Below, piece after piece: positions 1,854 through 41,016 of a stretch of 64,000 nucleotides of DNA. Position 1 is the first letter of the stretch; each line of letters starts with the position of its first letter. This stretch comes from Dictyostelium discoideum. Lineage: Eukaryota. The notes under the pieces are model-generated. The model made no database searches and was not told the DNA's origin. It worked only from the letters and a program-made list of their open reading frames with translations. The position numbers and the translations under genes were made by a program. The stretch spans positions 4,000,001 through 4,064,000 of the forward strand of contig CM000151.3 in assembly GCA_000004695.1 (NCBI GenBank), given 5' to 3'.

Positions 1854-3873
<2,020 letters not shown>

Positions 3874-31009: not shown

Positions 31010-33624
31010 ATGAAAAATATTGAATATGAATTTAATAATAATGAAAGATTATTTTGGAAAGTTTTTAAAGATAAATTTTTATTTAATTATATATTTAATC
31101 AAATGATTACAACAGAAATAATTTATAAAGATGAAAAGAAATATTATGTTGGTAATAGAATTCAATGGAAATATATAAAATCAATTGAATGGATGATTGC
31201 AAATAATCAAATAACATTATTTAAAGATAAATTAAAATCTAATCAATATATAATTGTTGATTATTTCAGTTTAGAAATATTTATTAAAGAATGTAAAGAT
31301 ATTGAATTAATGAAATTATTAATAGATAAAAGAGGTGACGATTTACCAATTGAAAGTTTAGTTAGTTTATCATTAAATCTTGGTAATATTGTAGCATGTT
31401 CAGCTTTTATTGATTTAAATTTACCATTTGCTCGTTCCTCATTTACAAGTGCGATTTCAATTGGTAATCTTCAAATTTTTAAAAAATTATTAACAAAATT
31501 ATCACCTCAAGATTTTGATAATCCATCAAAGTATCCAAAACATGAAATTTTTCAATTAATTGATTCAAATAATGAAATTATGGAATTTATTTTACTTGAT
31601 GAAAATCTTTATTCAAAAAACCACCAACATGATAATGATAAAACACAATTAGTATCAATTCAAAATTATTTTTTATTTAAAAAAGAAATTTCAAAAAAAT
31701 TATTAAAATTAAATTTAGTAAATAAAAAAATGAATAATGAAGAAAATAATAATAATATTAACAGTAATAATGATAATAATAATAATAATAATAATAATGA
31801 TTTATCAATTCATCATTTAATATTAAGAATTATAAAAAATGAACCATTAGAAATTGAACAAGATGAATTATTATTTTTAATTGAATCTTATTATTTAGTA
31901 TGTTTAAATTTACAAGAAATACCAATACAGATTTTAGATAGAATTGAAAAAATTAAATTATTAGATACCTCTAGAGATAATGAACTTACAAAACGTTATC
32001 ATTTAGAGATGATACTAGTTGAACAACTTCAAGATAAACATAAATTTAGTGAACACGTTTATAAATTACTTTATAAAACTAATAATTTATCAGGTATTAG
32101 AAATATGTCATCACTTTATCATTACTCATATAAATCATTATGTATGGATGGTTTATGTTTGTTAATGTCCTATTATAAAGATTTTCAATGTATTTCACCT
32201 GATCAATTGACAATTAGAGATTGCAAAGTTGAATCTTGTGATAAATCATTAATAGATACCGATCCAGATCGTGTAGTTGCTTTCCTACAACTTTATTATG
32301 CAAAAAATAATAATATCAGATATCTACCAGAATTAGATAAAGAATTTATTGCAAAGGTATTTGTTAATTGTTCAATTGAAATTTTAGAGACAATTTTAAC
32401 TACAAATAGTCAATTTAATGAAATATTTGGTAACCTTCATTTAGGTGAACAATATACTATACCATTTAGTAAATATAGTTGGTTTATAAAAAGATATTGT
32501 CAATGTGTAAATGAACCAAACCTATCCTTCTTTAATTGTAATATAGAATTTAAATCAATTCAAGAGAAAAAAGATTTCATTGATATCTTATCAATTTATC
32601 AAACTCAATCTTTAAATTTACCATTTAATTCAATTGATTGTTTAGGTTCAATTGAAACTTGTGATTATTATACCTTTAAAATACCTTGGAATATAATACC
32701 TGATATTTATAAATTTGCATTCAATTATTCATTATCAATTTGTGATATTATTGAATTAAATAAATTACAATCAATAAAAACAAAATCAACAACAATAGAA
32801 ACAGATTTTAAGGATTATCAAATTGAATTTAAAAGTTTTAATATTAATTCATCAACGTCATTAATTTTATCACTTTTTAAATTTATAAATTTAAATGAAA
32901 GTTTTTATCAAAATCATTTATTTCAATTAATAAATAAATTTGAAGATTTAATTAAATCAGAAGAAAAAGAGAAAACTATTAAATCATTAGTAAATGTAAT
33001 TGATTTTAATAAATTTCAATTTTCAACTATAAAATTATTATTAAATAAAATTATTGAATTTGATTTATTATGGATTCAATTAATATTTGAAAGTGGTTTT
33101 AAAGTTCAAGATTATAATTTGATTAATCAAGTTGGAATTAAACCACCAAATGTTCAATTATTTAATGTATTAGATAATCAACCATTGGGTTTATATCAAT
33201 GTAAAACCTCAAATTATCAAACATTATTAGAAATTATTAAATTATTAAATTCAAATATACCAAATGAACATATTCATCGTTTTCAAGATTTTCAATATTA
33301 TCTCTACTTAAATTTATTATCTTGTAATGGTGTCACTATCAATTATTTAAAATATCAAGTTTTAAAAGTTTATCCAATTAATCAAGATTCTCAATTGTTT
33401 TATTTAAATTTAGTAATTTATTATTTGAGAATAAAATCAACAAAATTATTTAAATATATAATTGAAAATGAAAAATTAATCAATTATATTTGTAACAATG
33501 GTAATGGTTTATTTTTATTAAAATCAAGTTTCTTTTCATTTAATCAAATTTGTAATTCAAATTTTCAACAATTATTTTTTGAATTTAAAAATAATATACT
33601 TGAAAATAAAGAAAATATTAAATT

Positions 33625-33696
<72 letters not shown>

Positions 33697-34366
33697 TAAT
33701 AATAATTATAATTATTTACAAACTATTTATAATATTAATTATTTATTATCAGTTGGAGAAATTGATATAATTTTAGAAAATAAAAATGAATTCATAATTA
33801 ATAATTGTATTAATGAACATTCAATGATGGCAAGTTCAAATAATGCAAAACTTAATAGTATTAATAGTTCAATTAATTCTTTAATTTCAAAAATTAATGA
33901 AAAGCTAATGATTAATACTCCAGTTGAAAAGATTAAAGAATTTAATGAAAATATAATTGTAGATTATGATGGTAAAGATATATTTAAATCAGCATTAAAT
34001 TATGAAAGATTAGATGTAGTTCAATGGTTAATGACTGTTAATAGCTTTTGGATTGAAAAACTTTGGCATAGAATGGTGTTTGGTAATCATTTAGAAATTT
34101 CAAAATTTATTTATAAAAATTATTCAAATGAATTTACAATTGATCAACTTTCATTAAATGAAATTTTAAATTTTGGTTATCAAAATATGTTTGATTTAAT
34201 AATTAAAAGTTCAAAAAATATCTCTCCAACAATTCAAAAATTAAAAAATCAATTAGATGAAAAGGATGAAATTATTAAAAATTTAAATTTACAGTTATCT
34301 TTATTAAAAAAAAGAAAATTTGATGATTTAATTGATGATAAAAGTGGTTTTAATAATAAAAAATAA
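31010..34366 (+). CDS. Large hypothetical protein (~1118 aa) with an N-terminal RLFWKVFKDKFLFNYIFNQ motif (same type as the neighbouring FNIP gene), I/L/N/K-rich, with a poly-N tract at 33630–33700.
   Basis: ORF 30791..34366 is open. Its 5' 220 nt is poly-T/poly-A read-through (MIKK…FFFF…), so the first plausible start is the ATG at 31010 (MKNIEYEFNNNERLFWKVF…). No introns are needed. I did not recognise a family; it may carry ankyrin-like helical repeats. Confidence 0.55.
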
Positions 34367-34426
34367 AAAATAAAAATTTGTTTAATTAACTTTCTTTTTA
34401 TTTATTTAATTTTTTATTTAATTTTT

Positions 34427-36817
34427 TTAAAATTCTTGAATTGGTGGACCAAAATAGTTATAAATAAATGATGTTGTTGCTTTATTACCACCACTTATAA
34501 TTGTTAATGTCGAAAAGCCAAGTGGTCTTGGTGGATAATTAATTTTAACAGTATATTTAGTTAATTGGGTGAAATCACAAACGATACCATCAATTAAAGC
34601 TGTGAATGTATTTACGTTGAATGAAGAACCGAAATCACCTGATATATCCTTAGTTCCACCATTAGAATTAATTTGACCACTAACATCAAGGATTGAAATA
34701 GTTTCCCTATTAAATGTTCTAATATTTGAGAGGATACCATCTTTTTTAATGAATAATGAGAATGATGTTAAGCTTGATACAATTGGAGAAGTGAATGTAA
34801 CTGAACCTGAATTAACTTGAGTGATTGGATATTCAACATAATTTATAATAATTTTATAAGTTGATGAAGTTGGTCCGAATTCTGGTCCATAAACAGTGAT
34901 GGTATTTGATTCAACAATAAAGTAATTAATTTCAACAATTGGTGGATCAATATATTTAATTTGTGATTTTAAATAATCTACACCATTTACTTGTAAAATG
35001 AATGGATATAAGCCAACACCATTAAACACTTGAGGATAGCCAATTTCTATTGATGATCCACTAACACTAACAATATCAGCAACATCATTACCGATTAATA
35101 TATTCAATTGATTAATATCATTTGTTGGTAATCCACCTGGAATAGTTAAAACTTTTGAACCACCACTTGTATATAAATTTACAGTTGTTGAAAATTCTTT
35201 AATATAAGTAAACTGGTCAGTTGATTGACCCTCAACTTGTACACTAAAAGTAAATGAATTTAAAGTTGACGAAATATATGTACTAACATATCCATAAATA
35301 GTTTTTGGTACAACTATTGATGCTGAATTAATTAATATATTCATATTTGAAACATATGATAAACCACTTCCAAAAATATAAAGTAAATTTGATTCTAATT
35401 TAAAGCTAGAAATAACTGGTTTTTCATAACTAAAAACAAAATTGAATGGAATTGATAAGGTATTTTGGAAATAATAAGTATATGAAATATCTTTACCAGC
35501 GCCTCTTGGAATTGTAATTGTAAATTCTGTATTTGGTACAGTGAATTTTGCAAATGGTATAACCGAATTATTTTTAATACTATAACCTAAATCCTTTCCT
35601 TGAATTGTTATAATTGTTTCTTGTGAAGTTGATGCAATTTTATTATAATTTGGGTTTATCCAAAATGTAGCTAATTTAAAAAAAAAAAAAGTTTGATTAA
35701 ACCAATTAATACTTTTTTGGTTAAAAAAAAAAAAAATTATAATTTTTAATTAATATTATTACTACTACATACGACAAGTTGGTGTTGAATATTTATTAAA
35801 ATCAACAAATGAATTTGGGAAAATTTTATAAATACTTCCGCCAGCACATCTCATACATGATGGTACATTGGTTAAATAATTACCACCTAAATTAAGATTA
35901 TTTGGTTTAATTTGACAATATTCCTCTGGAATTGTTCCAATAAACTATTTATTTTCAAAAATTAGTAAATAAAAAAAATAAAAAAAAAATTGTAATTTAA
36001 TAAACTTACATTGTTCATAGAAAGGTCACTATAAATAAAAATTTTGGAAAAAAAAAAGTTAATTAACTAATTATTTTTAATATTATTATTTCTTTAAATA
36101 ATAATTATTTTTTAAAAATTAAAAACTTACATATATTGAGTTTGTTTGAAATCAATTGTATTAACTGGTAAAGTTCTTTGTGGTTGAGTATGATTATTTA
36201 TTATTATACTATTTGTGAAATTTGTAAAATCAATTAAATCAAGAGAAACTGAAGATCTATAAAGGTTAATTCTTGAACCCTTACTTACTTTAATACATGG
36301 TTTTTGAGTACAAGTTGAAAAGAAATTTGATAGATAATGGAAATATAAAAACATTGGTTTACCAGTATATGAAAAATCAAGTAATCCATTGGAAGGTGGA
36401 AGAATATAATCACCACTAATTGTAAAACTATTTAATTTTTGAATTTGTTTAATACTACTTGGAAGTTGGAATGTATGATAGGTTGAATAAAATGATATAT
36501 ATAAAGATTCCAAATTTATAAATTCATTAAAATTATTTGGAAGAGCTAAATTTGTTCCGAGGTCACCTTGAATTAAAACTTTTAATGAGACCAAACCATT
36601 CAAATGTCCTCCATATGGCAATCCACTAGTTGGTGTTATTGGAAGTTCTAAATTATATAATAATGTATTTGGAGGGAATGAACTAATAATTGAATAACCA
36701 GGTTCAGCCATTGATATTGATAATGATCCAAGACTAGATGTAAAGAATCCATTGTGAACCATTCCACCATATTGATATATAGTCCTAATAATGATAATTT
36801 AATTAATATAAAATTGA

Positions 36818-36848
<31 letters not shown>

Positions 36849-37276
36849 TAATATACTTACAATGATGTATCTTTAAATATTACATTTATTGGCACTGTTG
36901 TTGATTGCCTATTGATGTCAAGTTCATATAAACGATTAAAATTAATTAAATTTAAATAAAATTGATCAGGTACATAAAATCCAGAACCAATTTCAATAGT
37001 TGTAGCATTTTTAAAAATTGAAAAATCTTCTGTAATGAGAGTAATGGTTGAATCATATTTTGCAAATTTTATTGAATTAAAATATTGAATTGTTGGATTA
37101 TTATAATCAGATTGACATGTAAATTGTGGAGTTGAACAAGGATCAGTTGCAATTATATTGAAATATTTTAAAATCATTGATTTGGATAAATTATTTTGAT
37201 CTAAAAGCAACTCTCCCTTTATTTTGTTTAAAAAAACAAATAAAAATAATAAAACCAATAAAGCATTTATTTTCAT
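34427..37276 (-). CDS. Secreted LRR plus IPT/TIG-like extracellular protein, 5 exons: complement(join(34427..35670, 35773..35944, 36010..36028, 36131..36784, 36861..37276)); 834 aa.
   Basis: ATG at 37276 followed by a signal peptide (MKINALLVLLFLFVFLNKIKG). Exon 2 carries LRR-like units. A 19-nt micro-exon (TGACCTTTCTATGAACAAT) plus exon 4 give …IDLSMNNFIGTIPEEYCQIKPNNLNLGGNYLTNVPSC, a plant-type LRR consensus (LxLSxNxFxGxIP). Exon 5 has repeated beta-rich TIG-like units (…TIQGKDLGYSIKNNSVIPFAKFTVPNTEFTITIP…). All four introns have GTAAGT/GTATGT donors and AG acceptors and are 76, 102, 65 and 102 nt long; the phases are consistent and the total is 2505 nt (divisible by 3). There is no C-terminal TM segment. 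Confidence 0.65.
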
Positions 37277-37851
37277 TTTATATTTATTTTTATTTTTTTA
37301 TTTGATGATTTCAACTCAACCGATTGGTTTTTTTTTTTTATACTTTTTTTTTTTTTTTTTCAAAACAAAAATTAAAAAAAAAAAGTCAATTTTTTTCTTC
37401 ATATTTAAAGATTCCATTCACTGATTTTTGATGTATTTGAAATTGTGCAACCCACAACCGAAAATTCAAAAAAAAAAAAAAAAAAAATAAAAATAAAAAT
37501 GAAAGTTAAATCCTATAATTCGAGATAAGATTTTTTTTTTTTTTTTTTTTCTTTTAACAACTTTATTGGTAAAGGATATTTTTTAAAAAAATACATAACT
37601 TCCATGAACTTGTTTTTATAATAATAATTGTATCAACACCAAAAAGTAGTTAATTATTATTTTTTAAAAAATTTAATGATAATATGAATTTACAAGTTTA
37701 ATAATATATTCTTTATTTAATTATTTTAAAAATCAAAAATAATAATAATAATAATAATATTGGAAATATATTTTTTAAATAATTTATATTTATAAATATT
37801 ATTTTTTTATTTTTTTTTTTAAATTTATAATTATTTCCTGGTTTGATTTTA

Positions 37852-37893
<42 letters not shown>

Positions 37894-37919
37894 AAATTTT
37901 GTTTGAAGGTTGATTTTTT

Positions 37920-37954
<35 letters not shown>

Positions 37955-37995
37955 CTAATCAAATTAATTTTCAATTTTGACAGATACATATTAAA

Positions 37996-39471
37996 ATGTT
38001 TAATACAAATACATCTAACATTTCAACAAATGTATATGGTTTATCACAAAAGACAAGAGCATTATCACATATTACAGCGGAAGCAGATGTAAACCGATTT
38101 TTAGTTGGAACAACAGCATTAAGAGAAGAGAATGAAATTGCATTATTAGAAGCAAAAGAAGGTGAAGGTGTTAGATGTTTATCAATATTTCCACACCCAA
38201 AAGAAATCCATTCAATAACGTCATGTCCATTTGATTCATCATTATTCTTTTCAGTATATAATACATCAGGTGGTGGTAATAATAATAGTAATAATACAAA
38301 TAACAATGATAATACAAATAACAATACAAATAATAATGATTTTAAATCATCATTATGGAGAATTAATGAATCTATGGATTCAATTGAAGAATTATTTGAA
38401 TTAAAAGGACACACAGGTATAATTAAACCAATCCTTTGTGATCCATCAGGTTCAAATAATTTCATTATCTCATTAGATGATTCAAACATTAGATTATGGT
38501 CAAAGATTGATGATCAAAATGAACCAACAGTTATTAAACAATTTGGTAATCTTTCAAAATTATCTGTTGGTTCAATTAATCCAAATATATCAAACCAATT
38601 AGCAACTGCAAATGATGTTAATATTAAAGGTTGGGATTTTAGAAATGCAAAGTATGTAAAAAATAAAAATAAAAAAAGTACACACACACACACACACCGT
38701 CATACTCAAATTATTTTCATTAATTTAATAATTTATTTTATTTTATTTTATTTTATTTTATTTTATTTTATTTTATTTTATTTTATTTTATTTTATTTTA
38801 TTTTTTATAGAGAAACATTTAGTATGGATAAAGCACATTCAGAACAAATTAGAGATATTGATTTTAATCCAAATAAACCATATTATTTATTATCAGCAGG
38901 TGATGATTGTAAATTAAAGATTTGGGATACTAGACAAACTAGAGATCCTGTTAAAATATTCTCTGGTCATAATCATTGGATTTGGTCTGCTAAATTTAAT
39001 AGATATCATGATCAATTAATCATTACTTCAAGTAGTGATAACACTGTAAAATTATGGAACCTTTATTCTTTATCTTCTGCTTTCAATAGTGAAAATAATA
39101 TTAGTAATAGTAATGAACAACAACACTCACAACAACCAAATGAACAACAACCACAACAACCACCACAACCAGTTAAACAAAAGAAAAAGTTTGTATTTAT
39201 TTATTTTCTAAAATCTATAAAAATTATTAATATTATTATTTTATTTTATTTTATTTTATTTTATTTTATTTTATTTTATTTTATTTTATTTTATTATTAC
39301 AGTAAAAGAAATGAAGATCAATTAATTAAAACTTATGAAGAACATGAAGATAGTGTTTATAATATATCATGGAGTTCAAGTAATTTCTTATTTGCATCTT
39401 TATCTTATGATGGTAGATTTGTTGTTAATAATGTACCAAAAGAATATTCCGATATTTTATCTTATATTTGA
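37996..39471 (+). CDS. EIPR1/TSSC1 orthologue (WD40, EARP/GARP-interacting protein), 3 exons: join(37996..38651, 38811..39188, 39303..39471); 400 aa.
   Basis: From memory, it matches human EIPR1: [27 protein letters not shown] ~ [55 protein letters not shown] ~ [65 protein letters not shown] ~ [38 protein letters not shown]. The introns are 159 and 114 nt; both are multiples of 3 and stop-free, which is why the ORF track shows one 491-aa ORF. They use GTATGT and GTTTGT donors and carry (ATTTT)n. Confidence 0.85.
   Translation: [491 protein letters not shown]
38716..38806. repeat. (ATTTT)~18 pentanucleotide repeat in intron 1 of the EIPR1 gene. A second (ATTTT)~14 run lies at 39222–39295 in intron 2.
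   Basis: Read directly from the sequence. Confidence 0.9.
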
Positions 39472-39592
39472 AAATAAAAAAAATAAAAATAAAAACCAAT
39501 ATAAATATAAATATAAATTATTTATTCATTTTTCTTTTATTATTTATTTATTTAATTTAATTTTAATTTTAATTATAATTTTAATTATTTAG

Positions 39593-41016
39593 TTAACCAG
39601 TGAATTTCTTTGGTCTATTTTTATTAGTAGTGGATTGTTGTTGTTTATTTATTGATTTATTTGTGAATTTTGAAGATCTATCATTGCCATATTTTAATTC
39701 ATTTTCTTTACGTTGTTTTAATTGTGCAGCCAATTTATTGAATTGATTTGGTTCATCTTGAGATAAATGTTTTTTAGTTTTAACTTTTTTAACTCTACCA
39801 AGATCAAAATGTTTATTATGTTCATCCTTTTCATGTTTAATTTCTTTTAATAACTCATCACCTAATAATTCCTTTCTAGCTTGTTTAAAATCACTACCAA
39901 TATCTTCAATATCCCAAGACCCAACTTTAAATGGTAAATGGCCATTTTCTGGATTAATTTTTGAATTTTCTAAATTTTGTTTTGAATTATTAATTGATTT
40001 TAATTTCCTTTTATCATCAGTTGTTGATTGTTGTGGTACTCTAATTTTTTCCCAATCTAATCCTTCTTCTTGTTGTTGTTTAGTTGTTGTTGTTTTATTT
40101 TCATTTTCTTGTTTTTGTTTTTCTAATTTTTCAGCATCCTTTTTATCCTTTTTAGATTGATTATGAATATTAATAATTGTTGAAGGTGTAGTTAATTTTG
40201 GTGATAAATTAGTTGATATTAAAGATGGTGAAATTCCACCATTATCAGATTCTGATGATGGACCTGATAATGATGATTCATCAGAATCTGAATAACTATC
40301 ATCATCTTCTTCATCATCATCACTAGTTTGATTCTTTAAAGTTTGTTTATCTATTATTTCATCATTTCCAAGTGAAATTGATTTCATCTTTGGTGATGGT
40401 GATGGTGATTGTGATTGTGATAATGATGTTGATTTTATTTGTGGTGATACTTTTTTTGTTGACTCAATCTTTGGTGAAGAAGTGACTGTATTATTATTAT
40501 TAATTGGTTTTGTTGTTGTTGTTGTTGTTGTTGTAGTAGTTGTAGTAGTTATATTAGTAATTTTTTGTTTCTTTATATTTTGTTTTTCATCAGCTGTTAT
40601 TTCTGGTGTTGTTGTTATTGTTGTTGTTGTTGTTGTTGGTGTTGTTATTTTTGAAGTTAATTTTTCATCATCTAATTTTCTTTTATTACCAATAGTATTT
40701 ATTGAAACTGTATTTGTATTAATTGATTGATCAATATTTCTTTTTGAATAAAATAACATATATGCTTTTTGTGATAAAACTGTATTTAAACTAACTTGTG
40801 ATACTGATGAATCATCCATATTATACCAAATACCATTTGAACCTTTAACATAACAATAATAATGACCTGATGATGTACTACCACCTAAATGTACTAATAC
40901 TGCATATAAATCATAAATTGAATGATTCTAAAAAAATAAAAAAAATAAAAAAAAAAAGGAATTTAATCCAACAAATACATAATAAATATATATATATAAT
41001 AAAATATTATTATTAT

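What the first reader, a model, noticed from the sequence alone, without database searches (positions are those of the whole stretch)
36010..36028. A 19-nt micro-exon supplies the core of a leucine-rich repeat
In the secreted LRR/IPT gene, exons 2 and 4 can only be joined in frame through TGACCTTTCTATGAACAAT, which is flanked by …tttatttatag and GTAAGT. Together with exon 4 it spells IDLSMNNFIGTIPEEY, an almost textbook plant-type LRR (LxLSxNxFxGxIP). Micro-exons this small are easily missed by gene finders, and skipping it would shift the frame, so it may be a regulated splice.
Basis: seen in the sequence. Interest (0 to 1): 0.5.

Follow-up and report, generated by a model that had tools for sequence, protein, structure and literature searches.

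The report
Conserved, already-annotated 19-base exon
The 19-base exon is real and conserved in seven social-amoeba genomes, but it is already part of the reference gene model of Dictyostelium discoideum DDB_G0274825 and looks like an ordinary constitutive exon, not a hidden or regulated one.

Summary
TGACCTTTCTATGAACAAT sits at 36028-36010 on the minus strand, between ...tttatttatAG and GTAAGT. The five-exon, 834-aa model closes only when it is included. That model is residue-for-residue the annotated D. discoideum AX4 protein DDB_G0274825 (XP_001134604.1, UniProt Q1ZXL3), so gene finders did not miss the exon.

In six further genomes, out to D. purpureum, the exon is always exactly 19 nt with AG and GT borders. 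Its flanking introns vary from 74 to 124 nt and from 61 to 73 nt.

It encodes I357-N363, the beta-strand (xLxLxxN) of the penultimate leucine-rich repeat. That repeat is the part of the protein that best matches plant LRR receptor ectodomains, so the "LRR core" reading holds. Pfam LRR models themselves stay below threshold.

Nothing supports "regulated splice", and no RNA data were available here. The length breaks the frame, the flanking introns carry little beyond splice signals, and amoebozoans show little exon skipping.

The downstream intron is shared with two paralogues. The upstream intron is specific to this orthogroup. The micro-exon therefore probably arose when a second intron appeared 19 nt upstream of an older one. 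Low interest, already known.

The parts
36010..36028 (-). 19-nt micro-exon (exon 3), TGACCTTTCTATGAACAAT. It starts in codon phase 2 and ends in phase 0, and encodes I357-N363 (IDLSMNN).
   Evidence: It is 19 nt with AG|..|GT borders in seven taxa. GC is 32% against 8-9% in the flanking introns.
36029..36130 (-). Intron 2 (102 nt): GTAAGT...TTAAC (branch-like, about 31 nt before the 3' splice site)...T-run...TATAG. Specific to the DDB_G0274825 orthogroup.
   Evidence: Absent at this position in all eight paralogous copies examined.
35945..36009 (-). Intron 3 (65 nt): GTAAGT...TTTACTAAT (conserved branch-like motif about 18 nt before the 3' splice site)...AAATAG. Phase 0, two codons before the invariant Gly of GxIP.
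   Evidence: Paralogues P0014 (D. purpureum, L008) and P0022 (L007) have an intron at the same position and phase.
36131..36784 (-). Exon 2 (654 nt), irregular LRRs. Ends ...TQY + AT.
   Evidence: No gap columns across orthologues, and third codon positions vary most (122/218 against 44/218 at second positions).
35773..35944 (-). Exon 4 (172 nt): FIGTIPEEYC..., the last LRR and the Cys-rich cap.
   Evidence: G366, P369, C373, C393, C396 and C420 are invariant across the 16-member family alignment.
36861..37276 (-). Exon 1 (416 nt): start codon, signal-peptide-like N-terminus MKINALLVLLFLFVFLNKIKG, and a Cys-containing N-terminal cap.
34427..35670 (-). Exon 5 (1244 nt including the stop): tandem IPT/TIG (Ig-like) domains.
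   Evidence: Pfam TIG 23 bits against a 20.9 cut-off. Foldseek finds plexin-A IPT arrays at 7.6e-9.

Best explanation
This is a constitutive 19-nt coding exon of the D. discoideum AX4 gene DDB_G0274825. The product is a protein of about ten irregular LRRs, a Cys-rich cap and tandem IPT/TIG domains, inferred to be secreted from its signal-peptide-like N-terminus. The exon contributes residues I357-N363, the inner beta-strand and Asn position (xLxLxxN) of the penultimate LRR. Exon 4 supplies the rest of that repeat (FxGxIPxxYC). Shown: the exon is required for the ORF. Its length and its AG/GT borders are kept from D. discoideum to D. purpureum while the flanking introns change freely in length and sequence. 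Inferred: it is spliced by intron definition. Each flanking intron is short (102 and 65 nt) and extremely AT-rich (8-9% GC against 32% in the exon). Each carries its own consensus donor (GTAAGT), a branch-like TTAAC or ACTAAT motif and a T-rich tract ending in TAG. The spliceosome can therefore recognise the two introns independently and does not need to 'see' the 19-nt exon. Inferred origin: intron 3 is old, because it is shared in position and phase with two paralogues. Intron 2 is found only in this orthogroup. A second intron appearing 19 nt upstream of an existing one, before the discoideum/purpureum split, would have cut the micro-exon out of a longer exon.
For: The spliced model is an exact match to XP_001134604.1/Q1ZXL3. 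All annotated orthologues contain the peptide. The DNA alignment shows 19 nt with no indels and AG|GT borders in six sequences, and the same in D. purpureum (AGAAATTGAAAATTCTAAT, TTTTAG|..|GTATGT, same phases). Intron 2 is 74-124 nt and intron 3 is 61-73 nt across taxa. The micro-exon and exons 2 and 4 have no gap columns, and exons 1 and 5 have at most 6, against 3-73 in the introns. There is a unique in-frame candidate and a 0.3% shuffle rate. The AlphaFold model has pLDDT 90-94 around residues 350-400, strands every 21-27 residues from 156 to 335, and short strand segments at 357-358 and 364-367. The lower-confidence first model has the strand at 356-360. Profile hits to plant LRR ectodomains centre on the repeat, and the family alignment supports the same.
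Against: No transcript evidence could be examined here, and the Logan fragments in the cluster are unspliced ORFs (P0011 ends ...TQYM, reading into intron 2). The orthologue annotations are not fully independent: the D. firmibasis annotation used the D. discoideum proteome as evidence alongside RNA-seq transcripts (PMC11193728). The peptide is only moderately conserved (IDLSMNN / VGLTMSN / IDFSSSN / IEIENSN), with 11 of 19 sites variable among six sequences. Gain of intron 2, as opposed to its loss in all the paralogues, rests on parsimony over eight paralogous copies.
Confidence: 0.85

Rival explanations
1. Regulated cassette micro-exon. Developmentally controlled skipping would shift the frame, giving either an NMD-targeted transcript (down-regulation) or a 375-residue product truncated within the LRR region and lacking the last two LRRs, the cap and the IPT domains.
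For: Skipping gives a premature stop at codon 375 in AX4, and the frame shifts in all seven taxa. No tool result shows that skipping happens.
Against: The length is not a multiple of three. Both flanking introns have consensus donors and acceptors. Flanking intron sequence is poorly conserved beyond splice and branch-like motifs. Amoebozoans show comparatively low exon skipping (PMC6142364). No literature was found on Dictyostelium micro-exons or on this gene.
Confidence: 0.07
2. Annotation artefact. The gene would be a frameshifted pseudogene, or mis-assembled, and the 19-nt 'exon' only a device that restores the frame.
For: The exon is very short, and Pfam finds no LRR above threshold.
Against: The same 19-nt segment with both splice sites occurs in seven independently assembled genomes, including D. 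purpureum. All five exons are open, with codon-position-biased variation. The chance expectation is 0.3%.
Confidence: 0.03
3. The main isoform bypasses the micro-exon through another in-frame direct splice, for example the internal GTAAGT at 36288 (last exon base 36289) joined to acceptor 35944. That would delete 59 residues, about 2.5 LRRs.
For: Sixteen formal in-frame, open direct joins exist, including 36289>35944 with a perfect GTAAGT donor and 36166>35944.
Against: The internal GTAAGT is GTTAGC, GTTAAT or GTTAGT in D. citrinum, D. dimigraforme and D. firmibasis. The GT at 36165 is AT in all other sequences. The bypassed segment 36288-36131 has no indels and varies most at third codon positions (31/52 against 14/53 at second positions), so it is coding. 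The resulting 344-nt intron would be far longer than this gene's four introns of 65-102 nt.
Confidence: 0.03

Closest known systems
DDB_G0274825 (XP_001134604.1 / EAS66920.1 / UniProt Q1ZXL3, 'IPT/TIG domain-containing protein'), D. discoideum AX4
   Same: Identical.
   Different: Nothing differs. The entry is a 'hypothetical protein' with no functional study found.
Plant-specific-type LRR ectodomains of LRR receptor kinases and receptor-like proteins (HSL1, MIK2, HAESA/RLK5, GSO1, BRL3, PSKR1)
   Same: The repeat 353-376 (QTQYIDLSMNNFIGTIPEEYCQIK) follows LxxLxLxxNxLxGxIP. Profile E-values run from 2.4e-9 to 3.4e-7 for the top ten hits (PSKR1 2e-4), and the best-scoring stretch lies at positions 340-400 for nearly all of them. 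A family profile retrieves plant LRR proteins at up to 1e-37.
   Different: Only the last two or three repeats fit the consensus, and the upstream repeats are irregular (21-27 residues). There is no kinase and no transmembrane segment. The LRRs are followed by IPT/TIG domains. Pfam LRR models are below threshold.
Dictyostelid LRR-IPT paralogue family (P0014-P0032; about 740 aa, many with an S/T-rich stretch and a hydrophobic tail)
   Same: Same architecture and the same invariant GxIPxxYC...PSCxxCxGG block. Two members share intron 3.
   Different: None of the eight paralogous copies examined has intron 2, so none has the micro-exon. The DDB_G0274825 orthogroup lacks the hydrophobic C-terminal tail.
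Micro-exons of animals (neuronal, 3-27 nt, SRRM4-dependent) and of plants (conserved constitutive micro-exons). From general knowledge; not tested here.
   Same: A very short internal coding exon with conserved boundaries, encoding a few residues inside a structured domain.
   Different: Regulated animal micro-exons are mostly multiples of three and lie in long introns with conserved regulatory sequence. This one is 19 nt, so it breaks the frame if skipped, and it lies between 65- and 102-nt introns with little conserved sequence. That pattern matches constitutive intron-definition splicing, as with plant micro-exons.
Plexin/Met-type IPT/TIG arrays
   Same: The C-terminal half folds as tandem Ig-like IPT domains. 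Foldseek hits plexin A4 and A1 ectodomains at 7.6e-9 and 1.2e-8, and Pfam TIG is above its cut-off.
   Different: There is no Sema/PSI domain and no transmembrane or cytoplasmic part. This half has no bearing on the micro-exon.

Membership tests
Micro-exon (internal coding exon of 30 nt or less) | Short segment bounded by a canonical 3' splice site (AG) and a 5' splice site (GT) | tested here: met
   TATAG|19 nt|GTAAGT. Borders are kept in seven taxa.
Micro-exon (internal coding exon of 30 nt or less) | Inclusion is required to keep the reading frame between the flanking exons | tested here: met
   834-aa ORF with the exon, stop at codon 375 without it. It is the unique in-frame candidate in the interval.
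Micro-exon (internal coding exon of 30 nt or less) | Transcript evidence for both junctions | not testable with these tools
   No RNA-seq or EST resource was available. The Logan fragments are unspliced ORFs.
Regulated (alternatively spliced) micro-exon | A skipped isoform exists and varies with condition | not testable with these tools
   No expression data. The literature reports low exon skipping in amoebozoans (PMC6142364).
Regulated (alternatively spliced) micro-exon | Frame-preserving length (a multiple of three), so that both isoforms encode protein | tested here: not met
   19 nt in all seven taxa, and skipping shifts the frame.
Regulated (alternatively spliced) micro-exon | Conserved flanking intronic sequence beyond the core splice signals | tested here: not met
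   Introns 2 and 3 have 123/144 and 57/81 variable or gapped columns. Only the donor, a TACTAAT-like motif and the acceptor are conserved.
Leucine-rich repeat, plant-specific type | Repeat matching LxxLxLxxNxLxGxIPxxLxxLxx | tested here: met
   Residues 353-376. HMMER alignments to HSL1 and MIK2 repeats and the family alignment.
Leucine-rich repeat, plant-specific type | Tandem array with a beta-strand every 20-30 residues (solenoid) | tested here: met
   In the AF2 model (pLDDT 80-94 over most of residues 30-560), strands at 156-165, 183-188, 205-210, 232-237, 258-262, 284-288, 310-314 and 331-335, then short segments at 357-358 and 364-367. This is a prediction, not a solved structure, and the solenoid geometry itself was not inspected.
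Leucine-rich repeat, plant-specific type | Pfam LRR_1 or LRR_8 above the gathering score | tested here: not met
   LRR_1 scores 12 bits against a 20.6 cut-off, E=0.27, at residues 355-373. LRR_8 gives no hit.
IPT/TIG domain | Pfam PF01833 above the gathering score, and an Ig-like fold | tested here: met
   23 bits against 20.9. Plexin IPT arrays are the top Foldseek hits.

The most novel reading that the evidence does not exclude
The 19-nt exon could be a conserved 'poison by omission' switch. Occasional or stage-specific skipping would frameshift the message, either tuning the level of this putatively secreted LRR-IPT protein through NMD or producing a 375-residue product truncated within the LRR region. 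That would be a rare case of regulated exon skipping in an intron-definition amoebozoan. A milder novel reading is that the locus records an intron gain 19 nt upstream of an older intron, which would make it a natural test of the minimum exon size Dictyostelium splicing tolerates.
Probability: 0.07. Interest if true: 0.4.

Novelty: already known. Interest (0 to 1): 0.15.

Why it matters
It matters little beyond annotation hygiene. The micro-exon is already in the reference gene model and in every orthologue model examined. What this analysis adds is modest. The exon is conserved in length and borders across group-4 Dictyostelium as far as D. purpureum. It encodes the beta-strand of the most canonical LRR of the protein. 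It probably arose when a second intron appeared next to an older, family-shared intron. If skipping were shown to be regulated, it would be an unusual example of exon-skipping control in an amoebozoan, but nothing here points that way.

Tried and rejected
1. Direct in-frame splices that bypass the micro-exon. Sixteen formal solutions were found. They were rejected because their donors are not conserved and the bypassed segment behaves as coding sequence.

2. Transcript evidence from Logan cluster members. P0011 and P0012 turned out to be unspliced ORF fragments.

3. Literature. Searches for Dictyostelium with 'microexon' or 'micro-exon', and for DDB_G0274825, returned nothing relevant.

4. First AlphaFold run with five close orthologues. 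It gave pLDDT 48, and its Foldseek hits were weak (none at E<=0.001). The run was repeated with a 16-member family alignment and reached pLDDT 77.7.

5. Profile search through the word-indexed database. It was swamped by plant LRR proteins and returned no dictyostelid paralogues. Paralogues came from the exhaustive representative search instead.

6. Paralogues inside the window. There are none.

7. Whether this gene is unusually polymorphic between AX4 and other 'D. discoideum' assemblies. It is not. The whole 9-kb block differs by 2.3-4%.

Full report
**What is in the sequence**

The window has about 22% G+C, typical of Dictyostelium. On the minus strand, 36028-36010 reads TGACCTTTCTATGAACAAT, preceded by ...TTTATTTATAG and followed by GTAAGT.

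Joining exons 37276-36861, 36784-36131, 36028-36010, 35944-35773 and 35670-34427 gives a 2505-nt ORF of 834 aa. All four introns start GTAAGT or GTATGT, end TAG, and are 76, 102, 65 and 102 nt long. Exon 2 ends in codon phase 2 (..TAT AT). The micro-exon supplies T + GAC CTT TCT ATG AAC AAT, which reads I-D-L-S-M-N-N. Exon 4 continues TTT ATT GGA... (FIGTIPEEYC). Omitting the exon shifts the frame and gives a stop at codon 375.

**Is it more than chance?**

The 186 nt between exons 2 and 4 contain one, and only one, AG..GT segment that is in frame, open and leaves introns of at least 40 nt. Only 0.3% of composition-matched shuffles produce such a segment with a GTAAG or GTATG donor. The exon has 32% G+C against 8-9% in its flanking introns, the usual exon/intron contrast of this gene.

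The claim that exons 2 and 4 'can only' be joined through it needs a qualification. Sixteen other direct donor/acceptor pairs are formally in frame and open, including a perfect GTAAGT inside exon 2 (36288) joined to 35944. These are rejected for two reasons:
- The internal GTAAGT is GTTAGC, GTTAAT or GTTAGT in three other species, and the GT at 36165 is AT in all the others.
- The segment they would remove has no indels and varies most at third codon positions.

**It is already annotated**

An exact-sequence look-up shows that the 834-aa spliced model is the D. discoideum AX4 protein DDB_G0274825 (EAS66920.1, XP_001134604.1, UniProt Q1ZXL3, 'IPT/TIG domain-containing protein'). It lies on an 8,484,197-bp record, which from my own knowledge is the size of AX4 chromosome 2. 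Annotated orthologues all contain the micro-exon peptide. They come from three other D. discoideum assemblies, two D. cf. discoideum assemblies, D. citrinum, D. dimigraforme and D. firmibasis. So does the D. purpureum model. The gene finders and curators did not miss it.

The models are not fully independent evidence. The D. firmibasis annotation used MAKER with RNA-seq-derived transcripts and also the D. discoideum proteome (PMC11193728).

**Comparative DNA evidence**

I fetched the genomic loci and aligned them.

| Taxon | Micro-exon | Peptide |
|---|---|---|
| AX4 (window) | TGACCTTTCTATGAACAAT | IDLSMNN |
| D. discoideum ACTFIR | CGACCTTTCTATGAACAAT | IDLSMNN |
| D. cf. discoideum ACTFIZ | TGATCTTTCTATGAATAAT | IDLSMNN |
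| D. citrinum | TGATCTTTCTATGAATAGT | IDLSMNS |
| D. dimigraforme | TGGCCTTACTATGAGTAAT | VGLTMSN |
| D. firmibasis | TGACTTTTCATCGAGTAAT | IDFSSSN |
| D. purpureum | AGAAATTGAAAATTCTAAT | IEIENSN |

- The exon is exactly 19 nt in all seven sequences, always after AG and before GT (GTAAGT, GTATGT or GTAGGT).
- Intron 2 varies from 74 to 124 nt and intron 3 from 61 to 73 nt.
- The micro-exon and exons 2 and 4 have no gap columns against AX4, and exons 1 and 5 have at most 6. The introns have 3-73.
- A TACTAAT/TATTAAT branch-like motif about 18 nt before the intron-3 acceptor is conserved.
- The peptide itself is only moderately conserved. It keeps hydrophobic residues at positions 1 and 3 and Asn or Ser at positions 6-7.

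This pattern is that of a real, constrained exon.

**What it encodes**

Pfam finds TIG above its cut-off (23 against 20.9 bits). LRR_1 reaches only 12 bits (E=0.27) at residues 355-373, and LRR_8 gives no hit.

A profile of the orthologues nevertheless hits plant LRR-receptor ectodomains in the PDB: HSL1 at 2.4e-9, then MIK2, HAESA, GSO1, BRL3 and PSKR1. The best-scoring stretch lies at profile positions 340-400 for nearly all hits, for example 'kyidlsmnnfigtipeeyc' against MIK2 'SYVDLSMNRFSGTIPPQF'. A family profile retrieves plant LRR proteins at up to 1e-37.

An AlphaFold model built on a 16-member family alignment has mean pLDDT 77.7, and 90-94 around residues 350-400. It shows beta-strands every 21-27 residues from 156 to 335 and short strand segments at 357-358 and 364-367. 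The lower-confidence first model placed the strand at 356-360. The C-terminal half resembles plexin IPT arrays, with Foldseek E-values down to 7.6e-9.

The micro-exon therefore encodes the beta-strand and Asn segment (xLxLxxN) of the penultimate LRR, which is the most canonical repeat in the protein. It lies just before the invariant GxIPxxYC...PSCxxCxGG cap. 'Textbook' applies to this repeat only.

**Origin**

An exhaustive profile search found a dictyostelid family of about 30 members with E<=1e-10, most about 740 aa. I mapped eight paralogous copies onto their genomic loci.

| Copy | Intron at the intron-3 position | Intron at the intron-2 position |
|---|---|---|
| P0014 (D. purpureum) | yes, same phase 0, two codons before the invariant Gly | no |
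| P0022 | yes, same position and phase | no |
| P0013 copies 1 and 3, P0016, P0018, P0019, P0026 | no | no |

Intron 2 occurs only in the DDB_G0274825 orthogroup. By parsimony, intron 3 is the older one. The micro-exon was created when a second intron appeared 19 nt upstream of it, before the D. discoideum/D. purpureum divergence. This is an inference from a limited sample of paralogues.

**Mechanism**

What is shown is that the exon is required for the frame and that its borders are conserved. What is inferred is how it is spliced. Each flanking intron is short and very AT-rich, and each has its own consensus donor, branch-like motif and T-rich tract ending in TAG. Each intron can therefore be defined on its own (intron definition). 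A 19-nt exon then poses no recognition problem and needs no dedicated regulator.

**Regulated splicing?**

Nothing supports it.
- The exon length breaks the frame in every taxon.
- Flanking introns carry little conserved sequence beyond the core signals.
- A 65-species survey reports comparatively low exon skipping in amoebozoans (PMC6142364).
- No paper mentions this gene or Dictyostelium micro-exons.

It remains untested because no RNA data were accessible. The two Logan fragments in the protein cluster are unspliced ORFs.

**Verdict**

The feature is part of the reference gene model, so it is already known. Interest is low (0.15). The residual novel possibility, regulated frameshifting skipping, has a probability of about 7%.

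Noticed in passing
window 36283-36288 (minus strand), inside exon 2: A perfect GTAAGT (codons AAA GTA AGT AAG = KVSK) could splice in frame to the exon-4 acceptor at 35944, removing 59 residues (about 2.5 LRRs). It is kept only in the three discoideum-complex sequences and reads GTTAGC, GTTAAT or GTTAGT elsewhere. It is a possible cryptic donor.
   Followed up: partly
L004 about 2902-3000 and L005 about 2902-3000 (upstream of the annotated starts): The 801/802-aa models of D. discoideum ACTFIR, ACTFIW and ACTFIT and of D. cf. discoideum ACTFIZ start at Met34. The upstream ATG and the signal-peptide-like MKINALLVLLFLFVFLNKIKG are intact in L004 and L005, the two loci checked. Those two annotations are therefore N-terminally truncated.
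   Followed up: yes
L006 1501-8530 and L008 501-10732 (D. purpureum GCA_000190715.1): Gene models P0013 (1909 aa) and P0014 (1419 aa) are merged. P0013 fuses three tandem LRR-IPT paralogues, of which the middle one is the orthologue of this gene. P0014 fuses an LRR-IPT paralogue to an unrelated Q/N-rich protein.
   Followed up: partly
window 31331-40322 compared with L004: AX4 and the 'D. discoideum' ACTFIR assembly differ by 2.3-4% of aligned bases across the whole 9-kb syntenic block. That covers the upstream partial gene, the neighbouring WD40 gene, this gene and the 1088-aa gene downstream. The divergence is not specific to the LRR-IPT gene, and it seems high for a single species.
   Followed up: partly
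window about 33640-33740: A long AAT/ATT triplet run lies in the neighbouring region, which the syntenic loci suggest is a gene on the + strand (probably a poly-Asn tract). This is typical Dictyostelium low-complexity coding sequence.
   Followed up: no
C-termini of family proteins P0016-P0030 compared with window 34427-34500: Most paralogues end in an S/T/P-rich stretch plus a hydrophobic tail, which looks GPI-anchor-like. The DDB_G0274825 orthogroup ends ...YNYFGPPIQEF without one, suggesting a soluble secreted member of a mostly cell-surface family.
   Followed up: no
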